A stretch of 63,863 nucleotides of DNA, counting the filler, from Reclinomonas americana ATCC 50394 (taxonomy: Eukaryota), in assembly GCA_048213135.1 (NCBI GenBank). It is 17 parts of 17 records of this genome, joined end to end, with 100 filler letters (N's around TTAATTAATTAA, not from the genome) between each part and the next. Parts side by side here need not be neighbours in the genome. Positions count along the whole stretch, not along the records: positions 27,012 to 36,443 come from AFZH01021243.1; positions 36,544 to 38,979 come from AFZH01021244.1; positions 39,080 to 40,320 come from AFZH01021245.1; positions 40,421 to 49,885 come from AFZH01021246.1; 13 more parts are not named here. One strand, written 5' to 3'. The position numbers were made by a program, and so were the translations under genes. Positions 10,491 to 57,624 of this stretch are shown here, one piece after another. The notes below the pieces were generated by a model. It was not told the origin of the DNA. It did no database searches and was given only the letters and a program-made list of their open reading frames with translations. Numbering within the stretch: the stretch's first letter is position 1; each line of letters begins with the position of its first letter.

Positions 10491-10858
10491 ATGGTGAGCT
10501 CCTTCTCCCTCTCCCCCTCCCTTCTCCCTCTCCTCACCTCCCTTCCCTCCTCACACAGTCGCGCACCCTCACCCTCGTCACCCGCTCCCACCCCTCCTGC
10601 TCCCTCTGCGACGCCGCCAAACTCGTCTTGCGCGGCACACTCAACACACACAATCGCTTCGTCGACGCCTCGCGCCGCATCGAACTGCGCCAAGTTGACT
10701 TGGCCGCCTCCTCCACAGCCGCCGAGTGGACGGAAAAGTACGCAAACGACATTCCCGTGTTGCTGCTCGACGGACAGGAGATTTTCCGACATCGCGTCGA
10801 TGGGAAGGCGTTGTGGAATGCACTGCGCTCTGCCTCTGCTCGGAGGACGAGGACATGA
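10491..10858 (+). CDS. Glutaredoxin-like protein (DUF836 / YDR286C-C5orf63 type)
   Basis: ATG|gtgagc intron (10494-10558), then SRTLTLVTRSHPSCSLCDAAK...VDL...WTEKYANDIPVLLLDG..IFRHRVD. CxxC and IPV motifs are present. Confidence 0.8.
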
Positions 10859-18800: not shown

Positions 18801-20534
18801 AGCGGGTGCGGATAGTGTAAGAGGTGCGTGGCGCACTGGTGCTCACACTGCAGTCTGGCAGTGAGACACCAAGCAATGTGAATCGAGAGAGAGACAGGCA
18901 AACGCAACCCCGGAATGTCCCTTCTCTCCATTTCAAAGGAGCGGCGCTGCACGAGCGAGGAGAGACATGCATGAGAGACGGGAGGGACGTACAGAAAAAT
19001 TCAAGCATAATGTCACCTCTTTCTTGTGTACAAAGCCCAGTTGTTGACTCCGCCCCTCGGCCGTCAGGAGCAACACTGCATCGTTTTCCTCCAGATCGAC
19101 GGCTGGATCATCTGTATTCGCGCGTGTTGGTTACCAACTCGTGTGCAGAACATGCACTCGCCAGTCTGTCGCCGTACTCTCACCTCCATCAACCTGCTCA
19201 TTGTACGACACCATTTCGAGATCAATTGAAGATGACCGACCCGACTCCAAATGCGTCGTCTGGTGGATGGTCATAACGTGCGTTCCTGTGGGAGATGCGC
19301 AAGTATCAGCAGTCGGGGGGATTAGTGACCGCGACAGGCGTGGGACGCACGTCGTTGAGTGCTCTCCTCCAGTGCACTGTCAATGGCCACCTCGGTCTCG
19401 CGCCGCACGTAGGGCTGGAAGGCCTCGATGTATTCGGCGTCGTTGGTGAAGACGTCTGGGATGGGAGTGGCTTCTTCGGAGCGGCGCTGCAGGGAGAAGG
19501 AAAGGGGAGAGAATGAGGGGAAAGAAGGGGAAGAGGGTAAAGAGGGAAAGGAGGGGGAAGGATGAGAAGGATGGGAAGGATGGGAAGGAGGGGAAGGAGG
19601 GGAAGGAAGGGAAGGAGGGGAAGGAGGGGAAGGAGGGGAAGGAGGGGAAGGAGGGGAAGGAGGGGAAGGAGGGAAGAGGGAAGGAGGGAAGAGGGAAGAG
19701 GGAAGAGGGAAGAGGGAANNNNNNNNNNNNNNNNNNNNNNNNNNNNNNNNNNNNNNNNNNNNTTAATTAATTAANNNNNNNNNNNNNNNNNNNNNNNNNN
19801 NNNNNNNNNNNNNNNNNNGGGAAGGAGGGGAAGGAGGGGAAGGAGGGGAAGGAGGGGAAGGAGGGAAAGACAGGGGAGAAGAAGGAGAAGAGCGAAGGAG
19901 AAGGAAGAAACAAAAAAGAAGAAGAAAATAGCGAGTGCATGGAAGGAGGGAGGGAACGAGGGTGCATGAAGGAGAAAGTGAGTGATAACCGGAAAAACAA
20001 CAGAAAACAAGAATAAGAAGAAATGTGGAAAAATGGAGAAAGTGAAAGACCGAGCGAAAGAGGAGGATGTCACAAGTGAATCACAAAGCTGTAGGTGGTG
20101 CGCTGTGTTGCGCGTCTGCAGATTCTACGTGCCTGTCTCTCTCTCTCTCTCACACACACTCTCTCACTCCCAATCTCCAAATCGTGCACACGCACTCTGT
20201 CATCAAGGAACACACACACACTTCCTGTCAATCACTGTCTCTCTTTTTTCGTTCCACAAACCGATCGACTCTCCTGCACCTCCTCCTTGGGAGGCGGGCG
20301 ATAACCCCACACCAATTTCATGAACTTGTTCTCCACTTGCTCCGAAGTCAACTGCAGTCGCGCAACAGTCAGCCGACGGAGAGGAGTGCACAAGCTGCAA
20401 CACAACAAGCGCACCCTCTTTGCCCGCGACGGCACCCTCGTGGCAGCCGCATTTCCCAGAGTCGACTTGCGCGGCTTGCTGGACGACCCTGATGCCTGCT
20501 CCACAGTTCCTGCCTTTTGCTGCAGTCTCGCCAC
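15859..20534 (-). CDS. SETX: Sen1/senataxin-like UPF1-family SF1 helicase core (multi-exon)
   Basis: IPDVFTNDAEYIEAFQPYVRRE; LVEGPPGTGKT; ILLCAPSNVA; VVIDEAAQCVEPSALIPL; VGDPKQLPAT; LRTQYRMHP; VGVITPYRAQV; NTVDGFQGREKD; FLRDHRRLNVMLTRAR. Confidence 0.85.
18449..18562. repeat. (GGAAGGAGGG)n purine-rich simple repeat in an intron
   Basis: Perfect 10-mer repeat beside a gap. Similar tracts at 18270-18349 and 19585-19865. Confidence 0.9.
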
Positions 20535-29343: not shown

Positions 29344-29570
29344 GATGATGGTGAGATGAGATGTGGTGTTCTCGCGAGGTAACAACGATGGTAAAAGTGG
29401 GGATCGAATCTTGTGGGACGCATCCACGAGGGAGATGCGAACGCGACGCTCTCTGGCGCCGCCTTTATGTAACGAGTGCGCGCGCGCGTGTCATTACGTG
29501 TGATGTAGAGGTGCATGGTGAGCAGAACGCGCAGGAGCGACGAGAGAGTGGCAACAAAGCGAAGGGAAAC

Positions 29571-29821
29571 CGATGCGACGTTCAGTTTTCTCTTGACTTT
29601 TTTGCTTTGCAAGCAAGTGCAAGTGTCGAAGTGTGATAGAGGAATATGGTGGCCTGCAGGAGCGCTGCGGTGAGAGCGGGAACGAAGCCAAGGGAAATCG
29701 ATGCGACGTTCAGTTTTTTTCTGACTTTCTTTGCGTTTGCAAGCAAGCGCAAGTGTTGAAGTGTGATAGAGGAGTGCATATGTGGCCTGCAGGAGCGCTG
29801 CGGTGAGGGCGGGAATGAAGC
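29571..29821. repeat. Tandem duplication of ~125 nt in the divergent intergenic region
   Basis: cgatgcgacgttcagtttt...gtggcctgcaggagcgctgcggtgag occurs at 29571 and 29699. Confidence 0.85.
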
Positions 29822-29943: not shown

Positions 29944-30500
29944 TGAGTGACACTTCAACTTGCAGCCGTTCCTCTCACATTGACGCACATTGACGACCAA
30001 AGTGCGTGCGCTGCGTTCTCGTTGCTGCGTGCTCTGCCCTGGCTTCTCACCGTGAGTGGCTGCAGCCGGTCATTGCCGCACAGTGTGACGACCAAAGTGC
30101 GTGCGCTGGAGGCTCATTGCTGTGCTGCATTTCTCCTCACTACTGAGAAATCACAGCTGATCCTGGCCCTCGCGACCGAAGTGCGTTCTCGCTGCCTTAC
30201 TCTGCTCTCTTTCTCCTCACAATCGCAGCCTGTCTTGCACAGTCTGGCAGCCGAAGTGCGTGTGTTGGAGGCTCTTTGCTGCGTGTGCTGCATTTCTCCT
30301 CTCCTTCCGCACAGTCTGGCAATCAAAGTGCGGGTTGTATGCTCGTTGCCTCGCTCTGCTCACTTTCTCCTCACCGTTGAACAAACGCAGCCTGTCTTGC
30401 ACTGCCTGGCAATCAAAGTGCGTGCTTAATGCTCGTCGCTTCACTGTGCTGCTATTTCTCCTCACCGTCGAGCAATCACAGCCGATCTTTGACTCTTTGC
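29944..30500 (+). repeat. Six degenerate ~75-95-nt tandem units, each shaped like intron + micro-exon
   Basis: Unit: GTGCG...tttctcctc(ac)...CAG + 13-36 nt ending in (a/g)AA. Donor-like sites at 30002, 30097, 30181, 30256, 30328 and 30418. Confidence 0.7.
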
Positions 30501-30528: not shown

Positions 30529-31672
30529 ATGATTTCGAGAGTGAGTACCGCTGACTTCTGCTCTTCTCATCCTTGCACCCGCCTCACTCACTCACTCACT
30601 CACTCTGCGAGGGCGCCAGGTCATCCGCGGGCACAGTGAATTTCTCACGTGTGTCACCGTCACTCCCGATGGTCTCCACATTGTGAGCGGGAGTGCCGAC
30701 AGCACCATGCGAGTGTGGTCGCTGGCGAGTGGCGAGGAGGTGCGGCGAATCGATGGCGGCGGCGACGTCGTGCACCGTTGGATCATGTCGATCACTGTCA
30801 CTCCCGACGGACAGCACGTTGTGTGCGGGACGGGCGACAACACGGTGTGCATGTGGTCTCTGGCCAGTGGGCAAGAGGTGCGACGCTTTAGAGGGCACGC
30901 CAAAGTTGTGCACTCGGCTGTCGTCACCGCCGATGGTGCGCACATTGTCAGTGGAGGCGAAGACAACGCAGTGAGGGTGTGGTCGCTGGCGAGTGGCAAG
31001 GAAGTGCGACGGATTCGAGGGCACACCGATGTTGTGTATTCGGTCGTCGTCGCTCCCGACTGTCAGCGCATTGTGAGTGGCAGCGCGGACAGAACTGTGC
31101 GAGTGTGGTCGCTGGCGAGTGGCCAGGAGGTACGACGATTGGTGGGACACAGTCGTGCGGTGCGGTCTGTTGTTGTCACCGCCGACGGTCAGCACATTGT
31201 CAGTGGAGGCGAAGACGACACGCTGCGCCTGTGGTCCGCGGTGAGTGGGGAGGAAGTGCGCCAATTTGTGGGGCACACGGGTGTGGTGCGGTCCGTCGCT
31301 GTCACTCCCGATGGTCGCTTCCTCGTCAGTGTCGGTGGCGTGGGAGACAAGACTGTGCGAGTATGGTCACTGGCTGATGGAGAAGAGGTGCATCGCTTGA
31401 TGGGGCACACCGATGCGGTTTGGTCTGTGGCTCTCGCCCCCGATGGCCAGCACATTGTGAGTGGCAGTCGGGATAAAACGATACGAGTGTGGTCCACGCC
31501 GCGCGGACTGGCCGGGCAGGAGGTCGCTGCCGCGCGATCGGCGGTGCAGGCTGTCAACGAGCTGATGGACGGGGACGGTGATGGGCGGGACTGGATTCTT
31601 GTCGATGTCGTGCTGCGATGTTTTGTGCTGGAGGATGTAGAGGTGATTCAGCGCAATGCGAAAGGGTGGTGA
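30529..31672 (+). CDS. WD40 array gene 1 (7 WD40 + conserved C-terminal tail), intact
   Basis: Exon 1 MISR (30529-30540), intron to 30619, then VIRGHSEF... Seven repeats and the tail ...DWILVDVVLRCFVLEDVEVIQRNAKGW*. Confidence 0.9.
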
Positions 31673-32051
31673 ATGGACGTCAGAGAAGAGTACGTAATTG
31701 TGTGTCGGTGTCGGCAAGAGACATGTGGACGGATGAAGTGTTATTCTTTTGTTCTGCGATTGAGTTGTTTCCTTCTGCGCTTTTGTTTCTGTAGTATCGA
31801 TCCTTCTCGACTGTGCTCTTGTGGAACAATAGAGTGAACACTGGAAAATCTACCTGAAGACCTGTGCTTGTGTCGGACTTGGTCATCAAGAGCTGTTGCT
31901 CAGTGGATATCAGTTAACACTTCACGAACACGCTTCCCTGCACACGAATGCAGTGAGTGCAAGGCAGGCGACTTCCGAGCGATGAGACAATAAATAATAG
32001 CTGTGTCCTGTCTCACTCGATCACACGTACACACACACTCACGCCGAGAGA

Positions 32052-33162
32052 ATGACGACCAAGGTCAACGCACCTCTCCTAGGCCTGCAGTTGTCGTTTG
32101 TACGCTCACTACGATCACCGCGCAGGTCTTGAGTGGACAGCGGATTCCGTGCTGTGTGCCACCGTCACACCCGACGGACAACACGTGGTGAGTGGGAGTG
32201 CCGACAACACGGTGCGAGTGTGGTCACTGGCGAGTCGCAAGGAGGTGAGGCAGTGGAAGGGACACGCCTCGGCGGTGTTTTCTGTCGCCGTGACTCCCGA
32301 CGGTCAGTACATTGTCAGTGGCAGTGATGACAGCGTTGTGTGCGTGCGGTCGTTGTTGGAACCGGGAAATTATGCGCGACAGTTGAGAGGTCACACCGGG
32401 TGGATCATGTCTGTCGCTATTACTCGCGATGGGCGGCGCATCGTCAGCGGCGGCGATGACACAGTTCGAGTGTGGTTACTGCCGAGCGGGAATGCATATC
32501 AGCTTTGCAGGAGGAGCATGTGGGGTGTGTTGTGTGTCGCCGTTTCTCCCAGTGGTCAGCACATTGTGAGTGGGGGCAATGACGGAACTGCGCGAATGTG
32601 GTCCGTGGCGACGAGAGAAGTAGTGCGCCAGTTCGACGGGTACACCAGCCCGATGCTGTCTGCCGCCGTCGCTCCCGATGGCCAGCACATGGCGACTGGG
32701 AGTGACGACAGGATAGTGAGAGTGTGGTCCCTTGTGAGTGGGGAGGAAGTACGACGACTCATCGGACACACTGACTTGGTGAACTCTGTGGCGTTCACTC
32801 CCGACGGGCTGCACGTGGTGAGCGCGAGCAACGACAACACGGTGCGTGTGTGGTCCATGGCTGACGGCGAAGAGGTGCGACGACTGGAGGGTAACACGAA
32901 CTGGGTGAACTCTGTCGCTGTGACTCCCGATGGCCAGCACATTGTCAGCAGCGGCGTCGACTGCACTGTCCGAGTGTGGTCCACGTCGCGAGGTCTGGCC
33001 CGGCAGGAGGTCACTGACGCACGACTGGCCGTGCTCGCCGTCGACGAGCTGCTTGCCGAGGATGGTGATGATGAGCACGACTGGGTTCTGGTCGATGTGG
33101 TGCTGCGGTGCTTCGTGCTCGAGGATGCGGAGGTGATTGAACGACGTGCGGAAGGGTGGTGA
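32052..33162 (+). pseudogene. WD40 array gene 2, 1-nt deletion at the start of exon 2 (pseudogene or sequencing error)
   Basis: Exon 1 MTTK. Exon 2 from 32126 reads gga ca gcg gat (expected gga cac gcg), out of frame with the 7-repeat ORF ending 33162. Confidence 0.75.
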
Positions 33163-33497
33163 ACGGCGACGAAGGATCGGTTCGAGTGGCAACTTCCTCA
33201 GCGACTGGACGGGCGCGGTAGCTCTCTCGTGTCCTTGGTTGCGCTTTCACGCAGACACAAGAATCTCGTATCCTACTCGTGGAATTGGTCATCAAGAGCT
33301 GTTGCGCTTATCATAAAGGACTGATTCGCTGTCTACTACGTCTCAGCAAGCACTCCATGCACGCCTCCACTTGTGCAGCCTTGAAGCGAGTGCAAGGCAG
33401 ACAACTTCCGAGCAACGAGACAATCGCGATATCGCTGCGTCCTGACTCACTCTCTCTCTCTCACGAGCAAGCACACACACACTCACACGCCGAGAGA

Positions 33498-34605
33498 ATG
33501 GCAACGAAAGTACGCACTCCTCGCCTGATGTTGACAGTTGTTTCGCGTGCTCACAATTACCAACGCACAGGTCTTGCTGGGCCACGATCTCCAAGTGCTG
33601 AGTGTCGCTGTCACCCCCAATGGCCAGCTCATAGTGAGTGGAAGCGCCGATGCGACACTGCGTGTGTGGTCACTGGCGAGTGGAGAGGAGGTGCGGCGGT
33701 TGAAGGGACACATAGGCGCAGTGATGTCTGTCGCCGTGACTGCCGACGGCACGCGCATTGTCAGCGGTGGAGATGACACGACAGTGCGTGTGTGGTTACT
33801 GGAGAGTGGAGAGGAGGTGCGTCGGCTGCAGGGGCACACTGCTCCGGTACCGTCTGTCGCCATCTCCCCCGACGGCGCGCACATTGTCAGTGGAAGTGTG
33901 GATTTCACTATGCGCGTGTGGTCCACGGCGAGTGGAGAGACGGTGAAGCAACTGAAGGGACACACTCACGTGGTGCAGAGCGTCGCCGTTACTCCCGATG
34001 GGCAGCGCATTGTCAGCGGCAGTTCGGATGGCACAGTCCGAGTGTGGTCTCTGGCAAGTGGAGCTGCAGAGCGACGGCTGGACGGACCCAGGTGGGGAGT
34101 GTTTTCCGTTGCCGTCACTCCCGATGGTCAGCACGTTGTCAGCGGGAGCCAAGATAAAACTGTGCGCATGTGGTCGATGGAGAGTGGCGAGGAGGTGCGC
34201 CGGTTTGAGGGACACACTGATTGGGTGAACTCTGTGACGGTCACTCCCGACGGGCGGCATGTGGTGAGTGGCAGTTGGGACAAGACGGTGCGTGTGTGGT
34301 TGTTGGCGAGTGGCACAGAGGTGCGACGGTTGGAGGGACACTCGGGAACCGCGCGGTCTGTCACCCACACCCTCGATGGCCATCACATTGTGAGTGGCGG
34401 CTGGGACAAGACGATCCGAGTGTGGTCCTCGCCGCGCGGGTTGGCCGGGCAGGAGGTCGCAGCCGCAAGAGTGGCCGTGCTGGTCGTCAACGAGCTGCTT
34501 GCGGAGGATGGTGACGAGCGCGACTGGTTCCTGGTCGATGTCGTGTTGCGGTGTTTTGTGCTGGAGGATGCGGAGGTGATTGAGCAGCGTGCAGAAGGGT
34601 GGTGA
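33498..34605 (+). CDS. WD40 array gene 3, intact
   Basis: Exon 1 MATK (33498-33509), exon 2 from 33571 in frame. Seven repeats and the tail ending EQRAEGW*. Confidence 0.92.
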
Positions 34606-35003
34606 ATGGCGGTGGCCATGGCCGCGGTTCATTTTCTTTTCCGCAAGTTCAACCGTGCAACTCTGCGAACTCGGGTCGTGCACCACAGACAACGAATCAC
34701 TGCATTCACCACATTCCAGTACAATGCGTTGAATGTTCCCTTGCCCATGATGACCTTCGCACATCAACAATATAAAGGCACACAGTTACGTACTCTTCTC
34801 CAGCAGGCATCTTCCCTTTCGGGAGGTGAAGTGCGTTGGCGCGCCCCAGAAAGATATCGACTTCGTGGCGAACGCCATGGCCAGGGCTTGTCGATTTTCT
34901 CACTGTTTCCGCTCGCTGCGATAGTTGATGAGTTGCGACCTGCTGCGTCGACGTCCTGCAAATTATTCTCCGTTTCTTCCGAGTGCGCTCACGCGAGAAC
35001 TGC

Positions 35004-36126
35004 ATGGCGGACAAGGAGGTTTCGTGTGCGCGTACAAGCACGTTAGTTGCCACCCTCCTTGCAGCCTGTGAGTCTCACTTGTGCACACAGATTCTGAATG
35101 GCCACACCGACCACGTCTTGTGTGTCGCACTCACTCCCGACGGTCACCATGTCGTGAGTGGGAGCAAGGACAACACCATGCGAGTGTGGTCACTGGCGAG
35201 TGGCGAGGAGGTGCGACGCTTGCAGGGGCACACCTCGCAAGTGTTTTCTGTTGCCGTCACTCCCGATGGCCAGCACGTGGCCAGCGGGAGCTGGGACAAC
35301 ACAGTTCGCGTATGGTCACTGGCCAGTGGCGAGGAGGTGCGACGACTGGCGAGGCACTTCATGGGCGTGCTGTGTGTCGCCGTCACCCCAGATGGCGAGC
35401 ACGTTGTCAGCGGCGGCAACGACTGGGCCTTCCGAGTGTGGTCACTGGCGAGCGGTAGCGAAGTGCGACTGTTGAAAGGACACAACGGACCGGTGATGTC
35501 TGCGGTTGTCACCTCCGATGGTCAGCATGCTGTGAGTGGCTGCATGGACACGGCCGTGCGAGTGTGGTCACTGGCGAGCGGTGAGGAGGTGCGACGACTG
35601 GAGGGGGCACACTGGCGCGGTGCACTCTGTCGCCGTCACCCCCGATAGCCAGTTCATCGTGAGCGGGAGTCGCGACGCCACCGTGCGCGTGTGGTCGCTG
35701 GCGAGTGGCGAGGAGGTGCGGCGAATGGACGGGCACACTGAGAGCGTGCAGTCTGTCGCCATCACTCCCGATGGCCAACACGTTGTCAGTGGGAGTGGCG
35801 ACCAAACTGTGCGTGTGTGGTCTCTGGCTGACGGGAAAGAGCTGCGACGGCTGGAGGGACACACCGATTGGGTGACCGCTGTTGTCGTGACTCTCGGCGG
35901 CCGACGCATTGTGAGCGGCAGCAGGGACGGCACGGTGCGCATGTGGCCCTCGCCTCGCGTGCTTGCCGGGTATGAGCTGGCGGCCGCCCGATCGGCCGTG
36001 CGCGCCGTCAACGAGCTGCTGCCCGTGGACGGCGACGATCGCAACTGGGTGCTGGTCGATGTCGCGCTGCGGTGTTCCGTGCAGGAGGATGCAGAGGTGA
36101 TTGAGCGCAGGGCGGAAGGGTGGTGA
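35004..36126 (+). pseudogene. WD40 array gene 4, +1 frameshift in a G5 run
   Basis: Exon 1 MADKE, exon 2 from 35091. gagggggcac at 35601-35610 shifts the frame between repeats 4 and 5; the gene is otherwise intact. Confidence 0.75.
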
Positions 36127-36543
36127 ATGGACGTCAGAGAAGAGTAATTGTGTGCCGTTGTCGGCAAGAGACATGTTGACGGATGAAGTGTTGTTCTTTT
36201 GTTCTGCGACTGGGTTGTTTCCTTCTGCGCTTTTGTTTCTGTAGTATCGATCCTTCTCGACTGTGCTCTTGTGGAACAACAGAGTGAACACTGCAAAATC
36301 TACCTGAAGATTTGTGCTTGTATCGGACTTGGTCATCAAGAGCTGTTGTATATGAGTTAACACTTCACGAACACGCTTCCCTGCACACGAATGTAGTGAG
36401 TGCAAGGCAGGCGACTTCCGAGCGATGAGACAATAGTTAATTANNNNNNNNNNNNNNNNNNNNNNNNNNNNNNNNNNNNNNNNNNNNTTAATTAATTAAN
36501 NNNNNNNNNNNNNNNNNNNNNNNNNNNNNNNNNNNNNNNNNNN

Positions 36544-36764
36544 GCATTGTGAGCGGCAGCAGGGACGGCACGGTGCGCATGTGGCCCTCGCCTCGCGGGC
36601 TGGCCGGGCAAGAGCTCGCCGCCGCTCGATCAGCCGTGCAGGCCATCAATGAATTGTTGGCTGAGGATGATGACGAGCGCGACTGGATCCTTGTCGATGT
36701 GGTGATGCGATGTTTTGTGCTTGAGGATGCGGGGGTGATTGAGCGGCGTGCAGAAGGGTGGTGA
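36544..36764 (+). CDS. WD40 array gene 5 (3' end only; remainder in the gap)
   Basis: IVSGSRDGTVRMWPSPRGLAGQELAAARSAV...DWILVDVVMRCFVLEDAGVIERRAEGW*. Confidence 0.8.
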
Positions 36765-37112
36765 ACGGCGACGAAGGATCGGTTCGAGTGGCAACTTCCT
36801 CAGCGACTGGACGGGTGCGGTAGCTCTCCTGTGTCTATTGTTGTGCTTTTCTTTTCGTGCGTGCTTCACGGAGACACATGAATCCCGTAACATATGGACT
36901 TGGTCATCAAGAGCTGTTGCGCTTATCATAAAGGGCTGATTCGCTGTCCAATACATCGCAGCAAGCACTCCATGCACGCCTCTACTTGTGCAGCCTTGAA
37001 GCGAGTGCAAGGCAGACAACTTCCGAGCAACGAGACAATCGCGATATCGCTGCGTCCTGACTCACTCTCTCTCTCTCACGAGCAAGCACACACACACTCA
37101 CACGCCGAGAGA

Positions 37113-38220
37113 ATGGCAACGAAAGTACGCACTCCTCGCCTGATGTTGACAGTTGTTTCGCGTGCTCACAATTACCAACGCACAGGTCTTGCTGGGCCAC
37201 GATCTCCAAGTGCTGAGTGTCGCTGTCACCCCCAATGGCCAGCTCATAGTGAGTGGAAGCGCCGATGCGACACTGCGTGTGTGGTCACTTGCGAGTGGAG
37301 AGGAGGTGCGGCGGTTGAAGGGACACATAGGAGCAGTGATGTCTGTCGCCGTGACTCCAGACGGCACGCGCATTGTCAGCGGTGGAGATGACACGACAGT
37401 GCGTGTGTGGTTACTGGAGAGTGGAGAGGAGGTGCGTCGGCTGCAGGGGCACACTGCGCCGGTGCCATCTGTCGCCATCTCCCCCGACGGCGCGCACATT
37501 GTCAGTGGAAGTGTGGATTTCACTATGCACGTGTGGTCCACGGCGAGTGGAGAGACGGTGAAGCAACTGAAGGGACACACTCACGTGGTGCAGAGCGTCG
37601 CCGTTACTCCTGATGGACAGCGCATTGTCAGCGGCAGTTCGGATGGCACAGTCCGAGTGTGGTCTCTGGCAAGTGGAGCTGCAGAGCGACGGCTGGACGG
37701 ACCCAGGTGGGGAGTGTTTTCCGTTGCCGTCACTCCGGATGGTCTTCACGTCGTGAGCGGGAGCCAAGATAAAACTGTGCGCATGTGGTCGATGGAGAGT
37801 GGCGAGGAGGTGCGCCGGTTTGAGGGACACACTGATTGGGTGAACTCTGTGACGGTCACTCCCGACGGGCGGCATGTGGTGAGTGGCAGTTGGGACAAGA
37901 CGGTGCGTGTGTGGTTGTTGGCGAGTGGCACAGAGGTGCGACGGTTGGAGGGACACTCGGGAACCGCGCGGTCTGTCACCCACACCCTCGATGGCCATCA
38001 CATTGTGAGCAGCGGCTGGGACAAGACGATCCGGGTGTGGTCCTCGCCTCGCGGGCTGGCCGGGCAGGAGGTCGCAGCCGCAAGAGTGGCCGTGCTGGTC
38101 GTCAACGAGCTGCTTGCGGAGGATGGTGACGAGCGCGACTGGATCCTGGTCGATGTCGTGTTGCGGTGTTTTGTGCTGGAGGATGCGGAGGTGATTGAGC
38201 AGCGTGCAGAAGGGTGGTGA
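37113..38220 (+). CDS. WD40 array gene 6, intact; near-identical duplicate of gene 3
   Basis: Offset 3615 nt from gene 3. Only a few amino-acid differences (A/P, R/H, Q/L, G/S, F/I). Confidence 0.92.
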
Positions 38221-38513
38221 ATGGCGGTGGCCATGGCCGCGGTTCGTTTTCTTTCCGCAAGTACAACCGTGCAACTCGGAGAGTTCGGATGGCGCATCAC
38301 AGACAACGAAACACTTCTTTCACCACATTCCAATAATATTAATGTGATGAACGCTCACGAATCCTTTGCCGACAATGACCAGTTACTCTTCTCCAGCAGG
38401 CATCTTCCCTTTCGGGAGGTGAAGTGCGCTGGCGCGCCCCAGAAGGATTTCGTGGCGAACGCCATTAGGCTTCTCGATTTTTCTCACTGTCTCCGCGATG
38501 TCTCAGCTTCTGG

Positions 38514-38686
38514 TGTGCTTGCCGGGTATGAGCTGGCGGCCGCCCGATCGGCCGTACTCGCCGTCAACGAGCTGCTTGCCGCGGATGGCGACGATTGCAA
38601 CTGGGTGCTGGTCGATGTCGCGCTGCGGTGTTCCGTGCAGGAGGATGCACAGGTGATTGAGCGCAGCGCAGAGCGGAAGGGTGGTA
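38514..38686 (+). pseudogene. WD40 array remnant 7: C-terminal tail only (gene-4-like copy with the propeller deleted)
   Basis: VLAGYELAAARSAVLAVNELL...NWVLVDVALRCSVQEDA matches the gene 4 tail. The flanks match the gene 4 upstream and downstream spacers. Confidence 0.8.
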
Positions 38687-39116
38687 AATATGTGTCGTTG
38701 TCGGCAAGAGACATGTTGACGGATGAAGTGTTGTTCTTTTGTTCTGCGACTGGGTTGTTTCCTTCTGCGCTTTTGTTTCTGTAGTATCGATCCTTCTCGA
38801 CTGTGCTCTTGTGGAACAACAGAGTGAACACTGCAAAATCTACCTGAAGATTTGTGCTTGTATCGGACTTGGTCATCAAGAGCTGTTGTATATGAGTTAA
38901 CACTTCACGAACACGCTTCCCTGCACACGAATGTAGTGAGTGCAAGGCAGGCGACTTCCGAGCGATGAGACAATAGTTANNNNNNNNNNNNNNNNNNNNN
39001 NNNNNNNNNNNNNNNNNNNNNNNTTAATTAATTAANNNNNNNNNNNNNNNNNNNNNNNNNNNNNNNNNNNNNNNNNNNNAACGTACGGTAACGGTACGTC
39101 CTTCCTTTACTTCTAC

Positions 39117-39169
<53 letters not shown>

Positions 39170-39373
39170 GTTCATTTTCTTGGTGTATAAAAGCCTTTCT
39201 GTTTGCTTTCTCGGGGAAAGAACGCCTCACAGCGCATCAGCGCTGCACAAAAGGCAGAGGAGAGCACTCCGTGACACTCTTTCCCGAATGTGAAGTGAGT
39301 GTACACGCAGGCGACTTCCGATCGCGCGTCCTGTGTCACGGCGAACACTCACACTCCGTCACGCACACACAGA

Positions 39374-40320
39374 ATGGCAGCGAAGGTACGTGCGTGTGTG
39401 TGCAGTTACCGCGCGCTCTTCACAGCCTCATGCGTCTCTTCTCAGGTCTTGCGCGGTCACGCCGGCGAGGTAATGTCGGTCGCTGTCACTCCCGACGGCC
39501 AACACATTGTGAGTGGTGGTGTCGACAACACGTTGCGAGTGTGGTCACTGGCGAGTGGAGAGGAGGTGCGACGCATTGAGAGCCACAAGTCAATGAGGAG
39601 AGTTGCCGTGACTCCCGACGGTCAGCACGTGGTCAGCCTCGGTTATGACACGCTGAGCCTATGGTCACTGGCCAGTGGGGAGGAGGTGTGGCGAATGGTG
39701 GGGCACGTCAGGACTGTATTCTGTGCCGCCGTCACTCCCGATGGCGAGCACGCTGTCAGCGGCGGTTTCGACATGACAGTGCGCGTGTGGTCACTGGCGA
39801 GCGGTAAACACTGGAGTTGTCATGTCAATGGCCGTCGCTCTCGATGGTCAGTACGCTGTCGCTGGAGGCGCGGGTGTAACCGTGTGGTCACTGGCTAGCG
39901 GTGCACTGGTGCGACAGTCCCGATGGCCAGTTCATAGTGAGCGGGAGTCGCGACGCCACCGTGCGCGTGTGGTCCATGGCGAGTGGCGAGGAGGTGCGGC
40001 GAATGGACGGGCACACTGAGAGCGTGCAGTCTGTCGCCATCACTCCCGATGGCCAGCACATAATGAGTGGTAGCAGAGACCAAACTGTGCGTGTGTGGTC
40101 TCTGGCTGACGGAAAAGAGGTGCGACGGCTTGTGGGGCACCTTGGCGAGGTGACCTCTGTCGTCGTCACTCCCGATGGCCGACACATTGTGAGTGGCAGC
40201 GACCACGACGACTGCACGATTCGAGTGTGGTCCTCGCCTCGCGGACTGGTCGGACACGAGGTCGCAGCCGCAAGAGTGGCCGTGCTGGCTGTCAACGAGC
40301 TGCTCGCCGAGGATGATGAT
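39374..40320 (+). pseudogene. WD40 array gene 8, two internal frameshifting deletions; 3' end in the gap
   Basis: Exon 1 MAAK, exon 2 from 39446. Deletions near 39805 and 39917 remove EEVRRLEG / GH..V segments. Confidence 0.75.
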
Positions 40321-40432
40321 NNNNNNNNNNNNNNNNNNNNNNNNNNNNNNNNNNNNNNNNNNNNTTAATTAATTAANNNNNNNNNNNNNNNNNNNNNNNN
40401 NNNNNNNNNNNNNNNNNNNNCGTACGTACGTC

Positions 40433-40518
<86 letters not shown>

Positions 40519-40537
40519 CTTGTCCATTTTCTTGGAT

Positions 40538-40654
40538 TATAAAAGCGGTCAGTTTGCTTTCTCGGGGAAAGAATACGCTGCACTAATGGTGAGGAGAGCA
40601 CTCCGTGACGCTCTTTCCCGAATTCGAAGTGAGTGAAAGGCAGGCGACTTCCGA
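40538..40654 (+). promoter_or_regulatory. Putative WD40-family promoter: TATAAAAG + conserved GCAGGCGACTTCCGA
   Basis: TATAAAAG at 40538 and 39186. GCAG(G/A)C(G/A)ACTTCCGA recurs at ~31964, 33397, 36407, 37012, 38947, 39307 and 40640, 50-100 nt upstream of the ATG wherever the ATG is visible. Confidence 0.45.
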
Positions 40655-40691
40655 TCGCTCGTCCTGTGGCACGGCGACACTCTCACGCACA

Positions 40692-41803
40692 ATGGCAGCG
40701 AAGGTACGTGCATGAGTGTGCAGTTGCCGCGCGCTTTTCACAGCCTCATGCGTCTCTCTCAGGTTTTACTTGGTCACACCGACGACGTAATGTCGGTCGC
40801 TGTCACTCCCGACGGAACTCACATTGTGAGTGGCAGCAAGGACACCACCGTGCGAGTGTGGTCACTGGCGAGTGGGAAGGAGGTGCGACGAATGGAGGGA
40901 CACACTGACATGGTGTGGTCCGTTGCTGTCACTCCCGATGGTCGGTGCGCTGTGAGTGGAAGTGCCGACATGACTGTGCGAGTGTGGTCCTTGGCGAGTG
41001 CGAGGCAGGTGCGACTGCTGGAGGGACACCATGGCCATGTGTGGAGTGTCGTCGTGCCTCGTGGCGGGCAGCACGTTGTGAGTGGAGGCCGAGACAGGGT
41101 TGTGCAAGTGTGGTCACTGGCGAATGAGAAGCGAGTTCTCTGGTTGGAGGGACACCGTGACGATGTTCACTGCGTTGCCATCACTGCCGACGGTAAGCGC
41201 ATTCTGAGCGGGAGTGAAGACAAGACAGTACGAGAGTGGTCGCCGGCGAGTGGGAAGGAAGTGCGGCTGCCGCTGCGACACTACGGTGCAGTGCGCTGCA
41301 TTGCTGTCACTCCCGATGGCGAGCACATTGTGAGCGGGTGTAAGGGGGATCCAGTTCGCGTGTGGTCGCTGGTGACTGGGGAAGAGGTGCGACGGTTGGA
41401 TGAACACTCTATTGGTGTGTTGTCTGTCGCCGTCACTCACAACGGTGAGCATATTGTGGGCGCGGTCTGTGACAGCAGCTGGTCAATACGAGTGTGGTCA
41501 CTGACGAGTGGAGAGGAAGTGCGACGGCTGGAGGGACACACCTACGTCGTGTGGTCTGTCGCCGTCACTCTCGATGGCCAACACATTGTGAGTGGCAGCG
41601 GAGATAAAACGATCCGTGTGTGGTCCTCGCCGCGGGGGTTGGCATGGCGAGAGTTTAGGGCTGCGCGATTGGCCGTGCTTGCCGTCAACAAGCTGCTGGC
41701 CGAGGATGATGATGAGCGCGACTGGATCCTGGTCGACGTAGTGCTGCGGTGCTTCGTGCTCGAGGATGCAGAGGTGATTGAGCGGCGGGCGGAAGGGTGG
41801 TGA
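40692..41803 (+). CDS. WD40 array gene 9, intact
   Basis: Exon 1 MAAK (40692-40703), exon 2 from 40763. Seven repeats and the tail ...ERRAEGW*. Confidence 0.92.
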
Positions 41804-41916: not shown

Positions 41917-44900
41917 TCACCAACCCGACAAAAATCTCTCAAACATCCGAGTGTCATCTCCCGGCACGCTTTGCAGCAACTCTTGCAGCACTGCACCATC
42001 AAACCAATAAGTCACTCACAACTTGCGCACAAGTGCACAGAAGCTGACGCCGCGACTCACCACTCAGCCTCGCGTGCTCCGCCCGCGTAGTCAAACGCAT
42101 CGACAACTGCTGCTGCTGCTGCTGTTCCCGCTCCACACCGAAACTCGACAACCACCGTCCAAGCGCCTCTGCACACATACACACACACAAACACACACAC
42201 GGGTGTGAGTAGCACAGCAAGCCCCAACAGAGTAAACTCCAATCTCACTCACCAACAATATCCGCTCGCGCATCCCGCCGCGCCACAATCGCGCCCACAC
42301 TGGACGGCTGCACGAGGATGGTGTGTTGTAGCACCTGGAGTGGAGCGTAGTACTTGTCGTGCAAGTCGGCGGGCGCAAGCAGGCGATCACCGCCCGCCCC
42401 GATGGACGCCTCCAGGTAGTCGACCAGGCCTCGTGCCACGCAGTACACTGCAAACTCGGCGCACGAGCCGAACTGCAGCTGTGCAGTGTGACCGGCGATC
42501 GCCAGCGGCACCACCTGACGACCGTGCATGTCGTCGCTCTGGTCGTCATCCATCTCCGTCCAAGTGCTGACGATGCGCGAGATTTGTGCAATCAGGCCGC
42601 GTGCAGCCGGTCCACGTACGGCCACTTGAGCGACAGAAAACACCAGGCAGAGTGATGCGGCCGTCGACGATTCGGCGCACGCACGCAACACAGAGGCGCT
42701 GACGGATCTGTGCGGCAGAGAGATGATAAGAGGGAAGGGGCGACGACCATGTGGGGCGCGCGGCGATGCGCACCTTCCTCGCAAGGCCGCCTGCAACGGT
42801 CGCAGTGTGCACAAACAAGCAAGGCGCAACGGAGTGTCGTCCGAGGCGGTGGCGAGCGAGGCCAGCAGCCACGGATTTGACGACAACCACGCCTGGTGTA
42901 GCAGTCAGGCGCACACAACCAGTATGGGAAGAGTGAGAGCGGGAGAGTGACGCACATCGACTTCTTCCAGTTCCTCATCGCGAACGCCGCGGAGCGCGGA
43001 TTCCACGAAAGCGAGGAAGGTTGAAGGTAGTGAGCCGCGGGGGAAGGCTGTCCAGAGGGAAGATGACGGCTTGCAGCCGTGAATGTCCAGCAGGGTGGAG
43101 AGGGCGGAGGCGAGTGTGCGGGCTGGGAAAGGGGAGAAGGGGGAAGGGGAGAAATGGGGTAGGGGGAAAGGTGGGAAGGGGGAGAAAGGGGGAAGGGGAG
43201 TAAGGGGAGGGGGAAGGGGGAGAAAGGGGGAAGGTGGGCAGATGGGAAGGAAAGTGAGAAAGTGGGGAAGGGTGAAAGGAGGGAAGGTGGGAAGGAAGGG
43301 GGGAAGGGAGGAAGGGGGTGAAAGGGGGAAGGAGGGAAAGGAGGGAAGGTGGGAAGAGGGGAAGGGGAAAGGGAGGAAATGGGAAGGGGAAAGGTGGGAA
43401 GGGGTAGGTCGACAGGGAGAGAGGGGAAGTAAGAGGAAGAGAGAAATTGAGACAGAGAAGAAACGGGAGAGAGACAGAGAGAGGGGAGAAGAAAAAGAAA
43501 CAACAGAGAGAGAGAGAGAGAAGAAGAAGAAGAAGAAGAAGAAGAGAGAATAGATGGAGGAAGGAGAAAGGAAAGAGAAAATTGAAGACAGAGATCACAG
43601 AAGACGACGAGACGATGGATGTGGAAGCGGGAGAGAAAGAGAGAATAGATGAATGCAGACTGAGATGGAGAATGAAGAAAGGATGAGAGACGAAAGAGAG
43701 ATAGAAAGAAACAAAAATGGAAGAGAGGGAGAGAACAGAAGTGACGCAAAATATATATATAAAGACGAAGTGAGAGGACTGACCAAAAGCAAAAGGGAAA
43801 CGATAGGAAGAGAGAGAGAGAGAGGATGGCGTCAAGAGGATGGCGTCAAGAGAATGGAGAAACGGTGAGAGAAACAGAAGGTGGACGTGAAGTGAAGAAA
43901 AAGCGATGGCTTACAGACCAAACAGTAAGCGTGCGATGAATGTGCGAGAAAGAAACAAGGAAAGACAGTTGCATGAATTGTACACGAGGAAGGGAGAGAG
44001 AGAAACGGACACTAAAAGACAGCGTCACCTACTAACAGCCATCTATTGTGCAGCACTCACCACAGTCTCCTTGATACGACAGCAAGCTGAGCACGCTGAA
44101 CGCGCAAGAAGCTATTCGAGTCCGAGCTGGAGAAGAAAACCATGTCAGTATGAATGCTACGCCGCAATCAACGATTCATCGGTTACATTCTGCTAGCACA
44201 CGCTTACTGACCAGCGCTGTTGCTCTCCGCGCATCCGCTCGCCTCCACAAACACATACAAACTTATGCTCTGTTTTCGTGCAGTCTCCTCGTTTCAACAA
44301 ACTGGGGGTGCGTTCCGTCCCAACAATCTCTAATCTACACGAGCTATACTTGTGCCCAATGTCACAATGCGCACTTGCGCAGTTTGTCAATCCCACACAC
44401 CGTCACTCGCTCACTGCGGTCACTCATACACTCCACTCGCCGACTCACTTGTGCCCACACTCACTGATTTACAAACATTCTCCTGTGCACTCATTCAGTA
44501 TGCTCTATGCACTCAGTCATTCGCTCGCTCACTCGCCATTCATCACACTCTCACCTTCGCCATCGACTGCATCACTCCCTTCAACCACCCGCCTCAGCGT
44601 CGACCACATCACATCGCCTTCGATCGCACACTGGCCGAGCAGGTGACTGGCGACAAGCACTGCAGCAGCAAGGAGGCAAGTCAGTGCATGTACGACTTGG
44701 TTTCCCCATTGCAGACACCCCACTCGCACCAGCACCAGCGGTCGCCACATGCTCGCCTCTTTGCCACATGGCCAGCACCAGACACTCGAACACGGCACTC
44801 CATTGCTCGCTCTTCGCCTGCGATAAGCGATGAGCCTCCAATGTGTTTCATCCATTCCCCTTTCAAGAACGCAACAGGCGATTCATCGACACGACGTCCT

Positions 44901-52682: not shown

Positions 52683-52909
52683 GGAGGGAGATGAAAGAAG
52701 AAAGAGACTGGCGATGCAACATGCACTGTGTCGTACTTCTTCTCGTTTCTCTCTCGCACACACACTCTCACACGCACACACACACAAGAGAGCGAGAGAG
52801 ATAGAGATAGATTGAGAGCGAGAGCGTGTGTGTGTGAGAGAGAGAGTGGGTGAAAGGGAGAGAAAACAGACAGGCTACTGTTTTGTACTTCTTCTTCTCA
52901 TTCTCTCTT

Positions 52910-52940
<31 letters not shown>

Positions 52941-55866: not shown

Positions 55867-55908
<42 letters not shown>

Positions 55909-56539
55909 TCTCTTTCAGTATTAGTCTCTCTCTCTTCCTCTCTCTCAGTTTTAGTCTCTCTCTCTTCTCTCCTTCCCTATCTCTCTCTCCCCTCTCCCCC
56001 CGCTCTTCCCTTTCTAATCTCCCCTTCCCTTCCCTCCCTTTCCCCTCCCTTCCCCCTCCCCTCCCTTTCCCTCTTCGCAGTTCATCAAGGACGCCGAGAT
56101 CCAAGCCAACGCCCCGGCCATCTCCATGGAGGAGGCCCTCCCGGTGGCGGTCAGCGACGCCGCCACGGCCGCACCGCAGGAGCTGCACCAGTCGTCACGC
56201 ATCAACAAGGGCGAGACGGAGCTGGGACGAGAGGACAAGAAGCGCCACCGCGCTCGTATGAAGCGCATTGGCAAGAAGAACAAGCTCGCCCAGCATGCGC
56301 GCGAGGTGGCGCAGGGCGGCGGCGTCGACATTACCAAGCTGCGCGGCGTGAAGAAGGGCAAGGTGTCGGGCGAGGCCGCCTCCACGGCGCCAGTGAGCAC
56401 CAGATCCGACTACGGCAGCAGCGGTCGCTTCTTCAAGAACCTGCAGGCGCAAGTGCACTCGCAGGTCTCCAAGGACAAGTCGGCGGCGGGTGATGCGCCG
56501 GCGTCGGCGAGGAAAGGTGGTGCGCACTTCAAGTTGTGA
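52157..56539 (+). CDS. MPP10: U3 snoRNP protein MPP10 (multi-exon, spans a gap)
   Basis: PLSRLIVTSAFTSDQIWEQL; acidic tract; VDEKFFKLSEMERYLD; MEEALPVAVSDAATAAPQEL; ELGREDKKRHR; C-terminal FKL*. Confidence 0.9.
53850..54870. repeat. Intronic degenerate minisatellite (~60-nt period) in MPP10
   Basis: Recurrent gagatgcatgatcacatctc / tcacaagagagt / ctgagaatagtatcctctc units. Confidence 0.8.
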
Positions 56540-57624
56540 GGAGTGTGGGGGAAGGGAGGGGAAAGGGTGGAATGAAATACGAGTTAGGAAGTGGGGGAAT
56601 GACGCGGGAGGAAAACGCAAGCAAGAAAAGCGAACAGATGAAAGATAGCAGGGCAATGGCACTTCCGGAAGTTTGCAAGTAAGATTTGAATGAAAATGCG
56701 AGCAAGAAGGATAGGTGGCTCAGTGACGACGCCATCCTCTCGCACAATGAGCAACACCACCACAACTGCCAGCAGTTTTTCCATTGCATTGGATGGCGAA
56801 TTTCGCTCATTGTTTTTTCCCCCTCTTCACGCAGAGATGGAGACGGGCGCGCAGGTGAGCATGTGCACAGAGAGAGGAGAGAGAGTGATGCAGTGTGTGT
56901 GCGAGAGTGAGAGAGTGAGGGGGACGCGCAAGCAATAGAATCTTTTTCGCGTGCATTCTGTGCTCTCTCTCTCACATGCAGGCGCTCTCGTGCTGTTTTT
57001 CCCTCCTCTCTCACTCTCTCACTCACACACACTCACTCTCACACTCTTAAGTTTGCGTGTGTCATGACGATAAAGCAATAATGCATGCATTTTCCCTTGC
57101 GTCTCTCTCTCTCTCTCTCTCTNNNNNNNNNNNNNNNNNNNNNNNNNNNNNNNNNNNNNNNNNNNNTTAATTAATTAANNNNNNNNNNNNNNNNNNNNNN
57201 NNNNNNNNNNNNNNNNNNNNNNAGGCGGATGTACGGTACAGCAGACCCTTCCTTTGCTACCCTTCCTTTGCCACCCTTCCTCTGCCACCCTTCCTTTCCT
57301 CTCACCTTCCTTGTTACCCCTCCTTTGCTTCCCTTCCTTTGCTACGCCTTCCCTTTGCTACCCCTTCCCTTGCTCCCCTTCCCCTTTCCTCTCACCCTTC
57401 CCTTTGCCTCCCCCTTCCCCTTTGCCTCCCCTTCCCCCTTTGCCTCCCCTTCCCCCTTTGCCTCCCCCTTCCCCCTTTGCCTCCCCCTTCCCCCTTTGCC
57501 TCCCCCTTCCCCTTTGCCTCCCCCTTCCCCCTTTGCCTCCCCCTTCCCCCTTTGCCTCCCCCTTCCCCCTTTTTTTGTCTCACCCTTCCCCCTTTTTTGC
57601 CTCACCCTTCCCCTCTCCGCGCAG

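What the first reader, a model, noticed from the sequence alone, without database searches (positions are those of the whole stretch)
30529..41803. Tandem array of nine WD40 propeller genes with hypervariable blades and a conserved C-terminal tail: candidate diversified receptor/E3-adaptor system
Seen: nine head-to-tail paralogs or remnants. Every full-length copy has a 12-15-nt first exon, one short intron, exactly seven ~42-aa repeats on a near-invariant scaffold (V.VTPDG.HIVSGS.D.TVRVWSLASGEEVRRL.GH) and a shared tail. Variation concentrates just after GH (e.g. TDDVM, TDMVW, HGHVW, RDDVH, DLQVL, IGAVM, TAPVP, SRAVR) and at SG.xD. Established: these loops form the ligand-binding top face of WD40 propellers, and comparable positions are hypervariable in the internally conserved WD40 domains of fungal HNWD/het-e NLRs. 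Inference: this is a stand-alone repertoire without a NACHT domain, used for non-self or substrate recognition and coupled to a constant effector tail.
Basis: partly seen in the sequence, partly recalled or inferred. Interest (0 to 1): 0.85.

Follow-up and report, generated by a model that had tools for sequence, protein, structure and literature searches.

The report
Tandem WD40 propeller genes, shared tail
A eukaryote carries a head-to-tail cluster of nine related WD40 propeller genes or gene remnants that share an unknown C-terminal tail; the cluster is real, but the idea that it is a fast-evolving immune-like receptor set is not supported.

Summary
Nine copies of a 58-aa tail, all on the + strand, lie between 30.5 and 41.8 kb and nowhere else in the window. 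Six copies show seven WD40 blades. Seven of seven copies with a 5' end show ATG, a 12-15-nt exon and a 59-79-nt GT..AG intron.

Only four copies (c1, c3, c6, c9) are intact. Two have single-base frameshifts, one is cut by a gap, and two are remnants. Three 100-nt assembly gaps lie inside the array, and two contigs end in a repeated spacer, so copy number is uncertain.

Variation peaks at six columns in the top-face loops, the same sites as in fungal HNWD repeats (PMC1805685). This pattern is generic for internally conserved WD40 proteins (PMC5587647). The blades are as similar to unrelated database WD40s (0.45-0.56) as to each other (0.54).

Deep comparisons are saturated. The one young pair (c3/c6) shows purifying selection and no amino-acid change at the variable columns.

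The tail is an orphan with no Pfam or PDB match. It is conserved in two outside proteins.

Best reading: a lineage-specific birth-and-death family of stand-alone WD40 adaptors. Function unproven.

The parts
30529..31672 (+). c1: intact copy. Exon 1 at 30529-30540 (MISR), 79-nt intron, exon 2 from 30620; 7 blades + tail.
32052..33162 (+). c2: 7 blades + tail. One base is missing in the first GH His codon, so the canonical splice (exon 1 MTTK, 5'ss GTCAAC) is out of frame with the blades. Pseudogene or sequencing error.
33498..34605 (+). c3: intact copy. Exon 1 MATK, 61-nt intron, exon 2 from 33571. This copy was modelled.
35004..36126 (+). c4: 7 blades + tail with a +1 frameshift in a G run near 35598-35607. 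Exon 1 is 15 nt (MADKE), intron 72 nt.
36544..36764 (+). c5: end of blade 7 + tail only; the 5' part is lost in the gap at 36444-36543.
37113..38220 (+). c6: intact copy. Young duplicate of c3: exon 2 is 2.0% different (14 synonymous, 5 non-synonymous codons).
38503..38690 (+). c7: tail remnant with a terminal frameshift. Corresponds to c4 with 34913-35958 deleted.
39374..40320 (+). c8: degenerate copy. Exon 1 MAAK, 60-nt intron, several frame breaks or deletions in blades 2-5; the tail is cut by the gap at 40321.
40692..41803 (+). c9: intact copy. Exon 1 MAAK, 59-nt intron, exon 2 from 40763.
31964..31978 (+). Conserved upstream motif GCAGGCGACTTCCGA, about 50-100 nt before the ATG. Also at 33397, 36407, 37012, 38947, 39307 and 40640 (0-2 mismatches). 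The copies at 36407 and 38947 sit at contig ends just before gaps.
   Evidence: 11 matches at up to 3 mismatches, 3.3 expected; 7 of them in the array
31709..31998 (+). Spacer type 'A' (c1 to c2). About 95% identical to 36159-36441 and 38699-38975. 36144-36439 against 38685-38979 is 98.6% identical.
35641..35786 (+). 146-nt tract 94.5% identical to c8 (39919-40064), inside genes that are otherwise about 75% identical. Exchange of a blade segment between copies.
29983..30500 (+). Five to six degenerate tandem copies (72-95 nt period) of an exon-1 + intron-start-like unit upstream of c1.

Best explanation
This is a lineage-specific multigene family of small, stand-alone seven-bladed WD40 beta-propeller proteins, about 350 aa each. 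The family grew by tandem duplication and evolves by birth and death, with occasional sequence exchange between copies.

Shown:
- Each intact copy has a complete propeller of the consensus-like, 'moderately repetitive' type.
- Each blade carries a different set of residues at the canonical top-face hotspot positions.
- Every copy ends in the same 58-aa, probably helical tail.
- That tail is the best-conserved part in two outside relatives.

Inferred:
- Each paralogue binds a different ligand, most likely a protein or peptide, on its top face.
- The tail ties all of them to one common partner or location. The family would therefore act as a set of interchangeable adaptors.

The ligands, the partner and the process they serve are unknown.
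For: - Nine tails lie in tandem and none elsewhere in the window. Four copies sit on one contig.
- The AF2 model of c3 is a 7-blade propeller with pLDDT 83-98 per 10-residue block (over 90 for all but the last). The best PDB matches are 5yzv (44% id, TM 0.81/0.97), 2ymu, WRAP-T designs, WDR5 and LIS1.
- The stabilising tetrad residues are kept: H 29/35, S 27/35, D 34/35, W 34/35 blades.
- Purifying selection has acted on the scaffold (dN/dS 0.26) and on the tail (0.27) in pooled comparisons of c1, c2, c3, c4 and c9. In the young pair c3/c6 the values are 0.15 and 0.17.
- 35 of 35 blades carry a different 4-residue combination at columns 16, 22, 40 and 42. These columns lie in the D-A loop, the start of strand A and the B-C turn.
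- A tail profile searched against 1.84 billion representatives finds P0121 (E 1e-10) and P0122 (E 9e-6). P0121 is collinear at 29% identity over 382 aa, and the tail end W.LVDVVLRCF..EDAEV is nearly identical.
- Birth and death with exchange: c7 is c4 with a deletion of about 1 kb. Divergence is a mosaic of 2-23% along the collinear segments [c2-tail, c3, c4] and [c5-tail, c6, c7]. There is a 146-nt c4/c8 tract at 94.5% identity. Spacers are 95-99% alike beside coding regions that are about 70% alike.
Against: - No expression or splicing data could be obtained, so none of the gene models is verified.
- Only 4 of 9 copies are intact. The array may be decaying.
- The tail model has low confidence (pLDDT 42-62), and nothing links it to any partner.
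- Different top faces do not prove different ligands. These positions are the least constrained in any WD40 repeat.
- The genome was not available, so family size and the presence of other tail-bearing genes are unknown.
Confidence: 0.5

Rival explanations
1. One reading: a non-self or pathogen-recognition repertoire, an HNWD-like system without NACHT. Its top-face residues are kept hypervariable by diversifying selection, and the tail signals to an effector.
For: - The variable columns are the same two x-[conserved]-x pairs as in HNWD repeats (against passages of PMC1805685).
- 35 of 35 blades carry distinct combinations.
- Spacers are 95-99% alike while the coding regions between them are about 70% alike. 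This pattern would fit selection against homogenising the coding parts.
- Blade-segment exchange exists.
Against: - c3/c6 show 0 non-synonymous changes at 49 variable codons against pS 0.09, and overall 14 synonymous to 5 non-synonymous codon differences.
- Deep comparisons are saturated, with pN/pS about 0.9-1.2 per column, which is uninformative.
- Blades are 64% identical in DNA, with no concerted evolution of repeats.
- The same pattern is reported as general for internally conserved WD40s (passages of PMC5587647).
- No death, signalling or NTPase domain is present.
Confidence: 0.1
2. Substrate receptors of a cullin-RING ubiquitin ligase. The tail would act as the docking box, as the SOCS box does in WSB proteins or as DDB1-binding elements do in DCAFs.
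For: The architecture of a propeller plus a short conserved C-terminal helical segment resembles WD40-SOCS-box proteins. This resemblance is recalled, not tested. The tail is constrained and conserved in outside relatives.
Against: - No SOCS-box family, nor any other at a meaningful E-value, matches 3 tails at E up to 10.
- No PDB chain matches the tail profile better than E 1.5.
- Blades end in VW[S/L] (S 31, L 3, P 1 of 35), not in the W-D-x-R of DWD boxes. The DWD motif is recalled from memory.
Confidence: 0.07
3. A largely non-functional, decaying duplicate array. One ancestral WD40+tail gene was amplified, and most copies are drifting; the top-face variation would reflect relaxed constraint.
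For: - 5 of 9 copies are broken, truncated or remnants.
- The variable columns show pN about equal to pS.
- P0121 suggests that a divergent gene of the same architecture exists elsewhere.
Against: - Scaffold and tail dN/dS are 0.2-0.35 in all 10 deep pairs among c1, c2, c3, c4 and c9, and 0.15-0.17 in c3/c6.
- Tetrad residues are kept in 27-34 of 35 blades.
- The two single-base frameshifts may be sequencing errors; one lies in a G run.
Confidence: 0.2
4. Assembly artefact. Allelic or collapsed contigs were placed side by side, so there are fewer real loci than nine.
For: - Three gaps lie inside the array.
- Contigs A and B both end at the same point of the repeated spacer.
- Contig B is collinear with part of contig A.
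Against: - c1-c4 lie on one contig and are only about 70% identical in DNA.
- Contig B differs from A by 2% to 23% depending on the segment, and c5 is not c2.
- Other genes (RTC, helicase, Mpp10) continue across gaps, so the scaffold order is meaningful.
- If anything, copies are missing. Promoter motifs at 36407 and 38947 face gaps.
Confidence: 0.03

Closest known systems
Internally conserved ('highly/moderately repetitive') WD40 proteins of bacteria, fungi and protists (Hu et al. 2017, PMC5587647; structures 5yzv T. curvata PkwA, 2ymu Nostoc)
   Same: - Consensus-like 42-aa blades with the D-H-S/T-W tetrad residues.
- Internal identity of 0.55 falls in that paper's 'moderately repetitive' band of 0.4-0.7.
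- Diversity is concentrated at the predicted hotspot sites.
- The best structural matches belong to this group.
- Blades of P0002, P0004, P0029 and P0018 are 54-56% identical to ours.
   Different: - Those proteins usually carry long repeat runs fused to other domains, such as kinase or STAND NTPase domains (architectures recalled, not tested here).
- Here the protein has exactly 7 blades, no N-terminal domain, a eukaryotic mini-exon/intron structure, an orphan C-terminal tail and a tandem gene array.
Podospora HNWD / het-e, het-d NACHT-WD NLRs (PMC1805685, PMC2873952)
   Same: The positions of the variable residues are the same: two pairs that flank a conserved residue, one in the D-A loop and one in the B-C turn. 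Both are multigene families with some sequence exchange between members.
   Different: - No NACHT or HET domain.
- Repeats are 64% identical in DNA, not up to 100%.
- Repeat number is fixed at 7.
- Positive selection is not demonstrable.
- The genes lie in one tandem array.
- A C-terminal tail is present.
P0121 (394 aa) and P0122 (116-aa fragment), unnamed proteins from the representative library
   Same: They share the same tail (E 1e-10 and 9e-6). P0121 has the collinear propeller+tail architecture (29% id). P0122 is 53% identical over blade 7 + tail.
   Different: - P0121 has degenerate blades and an acidic insertion.
- Both have longer or different linkers in the tail, and neither ends in GW.
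- Their source organisms could not be looked up.
WD40 proteins with a short C-terminal docking element (WSB1/2 SOCS box; Cdc20/Cdh1 IR tail): recalled analogies only
   Same: A seven-blade propeller followed by a short conserved C-terminal element. In our array the C-terminus itself is invariant: GW in 7 of 7 complete tails.
   Different: There is no sequence match to any such element. The analogy is functional speculation.

Membership tests
WD40 repeat beta-propeller (Pfam PF00400) | Repeats scoring above the Pfam gathering cut-off | tested here: met
   198-249 bits against a cut-off of 27. There are 7 stretches in c1, c2 and c3, and 6 in c9.
WD40 repeat beta-propeller (Pfam PF00400) | Closed seven-bladed propeller fold | tested here: met
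   The AF2 model has pLDDT 83-98 per block over residues 1-290 and 28 strands. Foldseek TM is 0.79-0.81 (query) and 0.94-0.97 (target) to 5yzv and 7big. This is a prediction, not a solved structure.
Moderately repetitive WD40 (Hu et al. 2017) | Internal repeat identity of 0.4-0.7 (highly repetitive: at least 0.7) | tested here: met
   Mean within-copy blade identity is 0.55. The definition is from passages of PMC5587647. My identity measure is not their exact pipeline.
Fungal HNWD / NWD NLR | N-terminal effector domain + NACHT NTPase upstream of the WD repeats | tested here: not met
   Only WD40-type Pfam families are found. The predicted ATG lies 73-91 nt upstream of the start of exon 2, and the spacers to the previous stop are about 330-400 nt.
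Fungal HNWD / NWD NLR | Repeats extremely conserved within and between genes (up to 100%); concerted evolution of repeats | tested here: not met
   DNA identity is 0.644 within a copy, 0.658 for the same index between copies and 0.639 for different indices. The best hit in another copy has the same blade index in 12 of 35 cases. Only one short blade tract was exchanged.
Fungal HNWD / NWD NLR | Positive diversifying selection at four top-face codons | tested here: inconclusive
   Per-column pN/pS is 0.7-1.2 with both measures saturated. c3/c6 have pN 0 at these columns. No likelihood site-model program was run; NG86 counting was done in my own script.
WD40-SOCS-box (WSB) proteins | C-terminal SOCS box recognised by the Pfam SOCS_box model | tested here: not met
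   Three tails were scanned at E up to 10. The only hit was OppC_N at E 0.21.
DCAF / DWD-box WD40 proteins | W-D-x-R at the end of at least one repeat (motif recalled from memory) | tested here: not met
   The residue after the conserved W is S 31, L 3 or P 1 of 35 blades, and never D.

The most novel reading that the evidence does not exclude
The 58-aa tail is a new protein-docking domain. It defines a previously undescribed family of stand-alone WD40 'recognition cassettes' in a protist lineage. The array would be a germ-line repertoire: coding regions are kept diverse while the spacers are homogenised, and each copy presents a different top face to non-self or to variable substrates, all feeding one tail-bound effector.
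Probability: 0.1. Interest if true: 0.7.

Novelty: new variant of a known kind. Interest (0 to 1): 0.38.

Why it matters
If the adaptor reading is right, the array offers a compact natural set of near-identical propeller scaffolds with different binding faces, joined to one orphan docking domain. That would be useful for learning how WD40 top faces encode specificity, and it would name a new C-terminal domain found so far in only three sources.

The array also shows heterogeneous homogenisation: spacers are 95-99% alike while the genes between them are about 70% alike.

As it stands, this is an ordinary lineage-specific WD40 expansion with no demonstrated link to immunity or ubiquitination.

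Tried and rejected
- Whole genome: not held.
- Sequencing runs: none was listed, and no RNA holder was listed.
- Tail region searched in the 5.8-billion collection at near lengths: no hit. Whole c3: only generic WD40 proteins at up to 59% identity, most covering only about the propeller (62-96% of the query, typically about 82%).
- Helicase exon search, meant to name the organism: no hit at E 1e-30. Atlas on the helicase exon gave only generic AAA_12 clusters. The organism remains unidentified.
- Atlas on the tail: no usable hit.
- Pfam on tails: nothing. PDB profile search: best E 1.5, chance-level.
Their sources and names are unknown.
- Metagenome scans: the tail profile gave no relative. 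P0122 gave 425 relatives, 80 kept, whose listed matches mostly cover only the WD40 blade (residues about 2-53, a few up to 93). None was examined for the tail.
- Prokaryote genome scan: propeller matches at 28-51% identity in many phyla. Most cover query residues 1 to about 300; 3 rows reach residues 342-343 and were not inspected.
- Tail homodimer prediction: no verdict, no support and no evidence against.
- Rfam and tRNA scans of the window: nothing.
- P0123 (E 5e-4) was rejected as spurious. It is a Cys-rich repeat protein with no WD40.
- A plain-haplotype explanation for contig B was rejected because divergence ranges from 2% to 23% by segment.
- Literature searches for a described tandem WD40 family of this kind (listings and abstract starts only) found nothing matching. 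This is weak, since the organism is unknown.

Full report
**What the window is.** The window is a eukaryotic scaffold. Seventeen contigs of 1.0-9.5 kb are joined by 100-nt fillers of the form N44 + TTAATTAATTAA + N44. No whole genome is held for it. Genes with introns continue across several joins: an RNA 3'-phosphate cyclase-like gene at 1917-4724, an Upf1-like helicase at 16019-18397 and Mpp10 at 52838-56536. The contig order therefore reflects real linkage. I could not name the organism.

**The observation.** A tblastn of the c3 tail finds nine tails, all on the + strand, between 31496 and 41800. A blade query gives 45 hits, none outside 30.5-41.9 kb. Copies are about 70% identical in DNA, except c3/c6. 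Status of each copy:

| Copy | Coordinates | State |
|---|---|---|
| c1 | 30529-31672 | intact: 7 blades + 58-aa tail |
| c2 | 32052-33162 | one base missing in the first GH His codon, so the predicted splice is out of frame |
| c3 | 33498-34605 | intact |
| c4 | 35004-36126 | extra G in a G run |
| c5 | 36544-36764 | only the end of blade 7 and the tail, after a gap |
| c6 | 37113-38220 | intact |
| c7 | 38503-38690 | tail remnant; equals c4 with about 1 kb deleted |
| c8 | 39374-40320 | several frame breaks; cut by a gap |
| c9 | 40692-41803 | intact |

The first four copies lie on one contig, so the tandem arrangement is not created by scaffolding. All seven copies with a 5' end show ATG, 12 nt (15 in c4), GT, an intron of 59-79 nt and CAG directly before [V/I]L.GH.

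A 15-nt motif, GCAGGCGACTTCCGA, lies about 50-100 nt upstream of five ATGs. It also occurs at the ends of two contigs facing gaps, so at least one more copy is probably hidden.

**Blades.** I aligned 42 blades and used 35 for statistics, leaving out c6 as a near-duplicate of c3. Entropy exceeds 3 bits at six columns: x before GH, GH-T-x-x, V-x-S, GS-x-D and D-x-T. The next values are 2.56, 2.29 and 2.12. On the AF2 model of c3 these columns fall in the D-A loop, at the second residue of strand A and in the B-C turn. By established WD40 topology those loops form the top face. The model itself has pLDDT 83-98 per block for the propeller and pTM 0.82.

The variable columns are the same two pairs flanking a conserved residue that Paoletti et al. 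describe for HNWD repeats (passages of PMC1805685). All 35 blades differ in their four-residue combination.

**Why this is not an HNWD-like system.**
- HNWD repeats are up to 100% identical and evolve in concert. Here blades are 64% identical in DNA and 55% in protein, whether compared within a copy, between copies at the same index or at different indices. The best partner in another copy has the same index in only 12 of 35 cases.
- Blades of eight unrelated database proteins are 0.45-0.56 identical to ours (0.54-0.56 for P0002, P0004, P0029 and P0018); ours are 0.54 identical among themselves. The 'near-invariant scaffold' is therefore the general consensus of internally conserved WD40 repeats.
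- Hu et al. report that in such proteins most sites are conserved while the predicted hotspot sites are diverse. Our internal identity places the family in their 'moderately repetitive' band (passages of PMC5587647).
- The closest solved structures belong to that group: 5yzv at 44% identity and 2ymu. Prokaryotic genomes of many phyla encode propellers 28-51% identical, and most of those matches stop at about residue 300.

**Selection.** I used Nei-Gojobori counting in my own scripts. Results for the pooled deep pairs among c1, c2, c3, c4 and c9, and for the young pair c3/c6:

| Comparison | Site class | Result |
|---|---|---|
| Deep pairs, pooled | scaffold | dS 0.89, dN/dS 0.26 |
| Deep pairs, pooled | tail | dS 0.58, dN/dS 0.27 |
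| Deep pairs, pooled | seven variable columns | pS 0.70, pN 0.61 (both saturated; ratio uninformative) |
| Per column | six columns above 3 bits | pN/pS 0.70-1.23 |
| c3/c6 | whole exon 2 | 21 differences in 1038 nt; 14 synonymous and 5 non-synonymous codons |
| c3/c6 | variable columns | pN 0, pS 0.09 |

None of the 5 non-synonymous changes in c3/c6 falls on a variable column. One pair is thin evidence.

**Dynamics of the array.** Contig B (36544-38979) is collinear with 32940-36439 of contig A, minus 34913-35958. Divergence along it runs as follows:
- 23% for c2 tail against c5 tail
- 6% for the spacer
- 0 of 72 positions for exon 1 + intron
- 2% for c3/c6 exon 2
- 17% downstream

The last 296 nt are 98.6% identical. 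The spacer after c1 is about 95% identical to those after c4 and c7. A 146-nt tract of c4 is 94.5% identical to c8 inside genes that are otherwise about 75% alike.

The array thus has a higher-order unit, [c2 c3 c4] and [c5 c6 c7], and shows patchy exchange, deletion and pseudogene formation. This is classical birth-and-death evolution with some conversion. Spacers being far more alike than the coding regions is the one feature that could hint at selection against homogenising the genes. I did not test it further.

**The tail.**
- The consensus is SPRGLAGQEvAAARxAVLAVNELLAEDGDxRDWxLVDVVLRCFVLEDAEVIERRAEGW.
- It has no significant Pfam match (one weak OppC_N hit at E 0.21), no PDB match better than E 1.5 and no usable Atlas hit.
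- AF2 draws three helices at pLDDT 42-62, which is not reliable.
- A profile search of 1.84 billion representatives finds three proteins:
  - P0121, 394 aa: a divergent propeller with the same tail, collinear at 29% identity, with the end of the tail nearly identical.
  - P0122, a 116-aa fragment: 53% identical over blade 7 plus tail.
  - P0123, which I reject as spurious.
- The tail is thus the most conserved part of a small family that reaches beyond this array. That argues for a specific function. I infer docking to a common partner, but nothing shows it.
- There is no SOCS box, and the blades lack the W-D-x-R of DWD boxes (motif recalled), so the E3-adaptor idea is unsupported.

**Verdict.** The genes are stand-alone, the variation is on the top face and the tail is constant and constrained. 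Hypervariability in the HNWD sense, diversifying selection and an immune or ubiquitin-ligase role are not supported. The best reading is a lineage-specific family of WD40 adaptors carrying an orphan C-terminal domain. Interest is moderate to low, and novelty lies mainly in the tail.

Noticed in passing
window, 16 places (e.g. 36444-36543): Every contig join is N44 + TTAATTAATTAA + N44, 100 nt in all. This is an all-frame stop linker inside the gap filler, so apparent ORF ends next to gaps are artificial.
   Followed up: partly
29983-30500: Five to six degenerate tandem units (72-95 nt) upstream of c1. Each resembles exon 1 plus the intron start of the WD40 genes (e.g. GACGACCAAAGTGCGTGCG) followed by a pyrimidine tract. 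They may be remnants of repeated 5' ends or alternative leaders.
   Followed up: partly
29544-29821: A 128-nt tandem repeat, 2.1 copies, 87% matches, just upstream of the array.
   Followed up: no
whole window, e.g. 18264-18568, 19511-19869, 43125-43404, 57245-57572: Very abundant polypurine/polypyrimidine microsatellites, such as (GGGAAGGAG)n, (CCCTT)n and (AG)n, with strong strand skew. Several contigs end inside them, which probably explains the fragmented assembly.
   Followed up: no
39120-39168 and 40434-40514, with TATAAAAG about 30-40 nt downstream: c8 and c9 share a different upstream region: (TC)n, then a TATA-like TATAAAAG, then the conserved motif. Contigs C and D both start in this (TC)n.
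   Followed up: no
31709-31998, 36144-36441, 38685-38979: Intergenic spacers are 95-99% identical while the flanking coding regions are about 70% identical. Homogenisation along the array is uneven.
   Followed up: partly
1917-4724 (+), 8222-9283 (+), 10451-10855 (+), 16019-18397 (-), 52838-56536 (+): Other recognisable genes in the window: an RTC/Rcl1-like cyclase, a protein kinase fragment, a glutaredoxin-like DUF836 protein, an Upf1-like helicase (AAA_11/AAA_12) and Mpp10. The 10 kb on either side of the array gave no Pfam hit.
   Followed up: partly
P0002, P0004, P0029: Unnamed metagenome proteins carry blades of the type SVAVTPDG.YVVSGS.DKTVRLW.LATG.EVRRFTGH. Single blades are up to 74% identical to blades here. 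A prokaryotic origin of the propeller by gene transfer is conceivable but untested.
   Followed up: no
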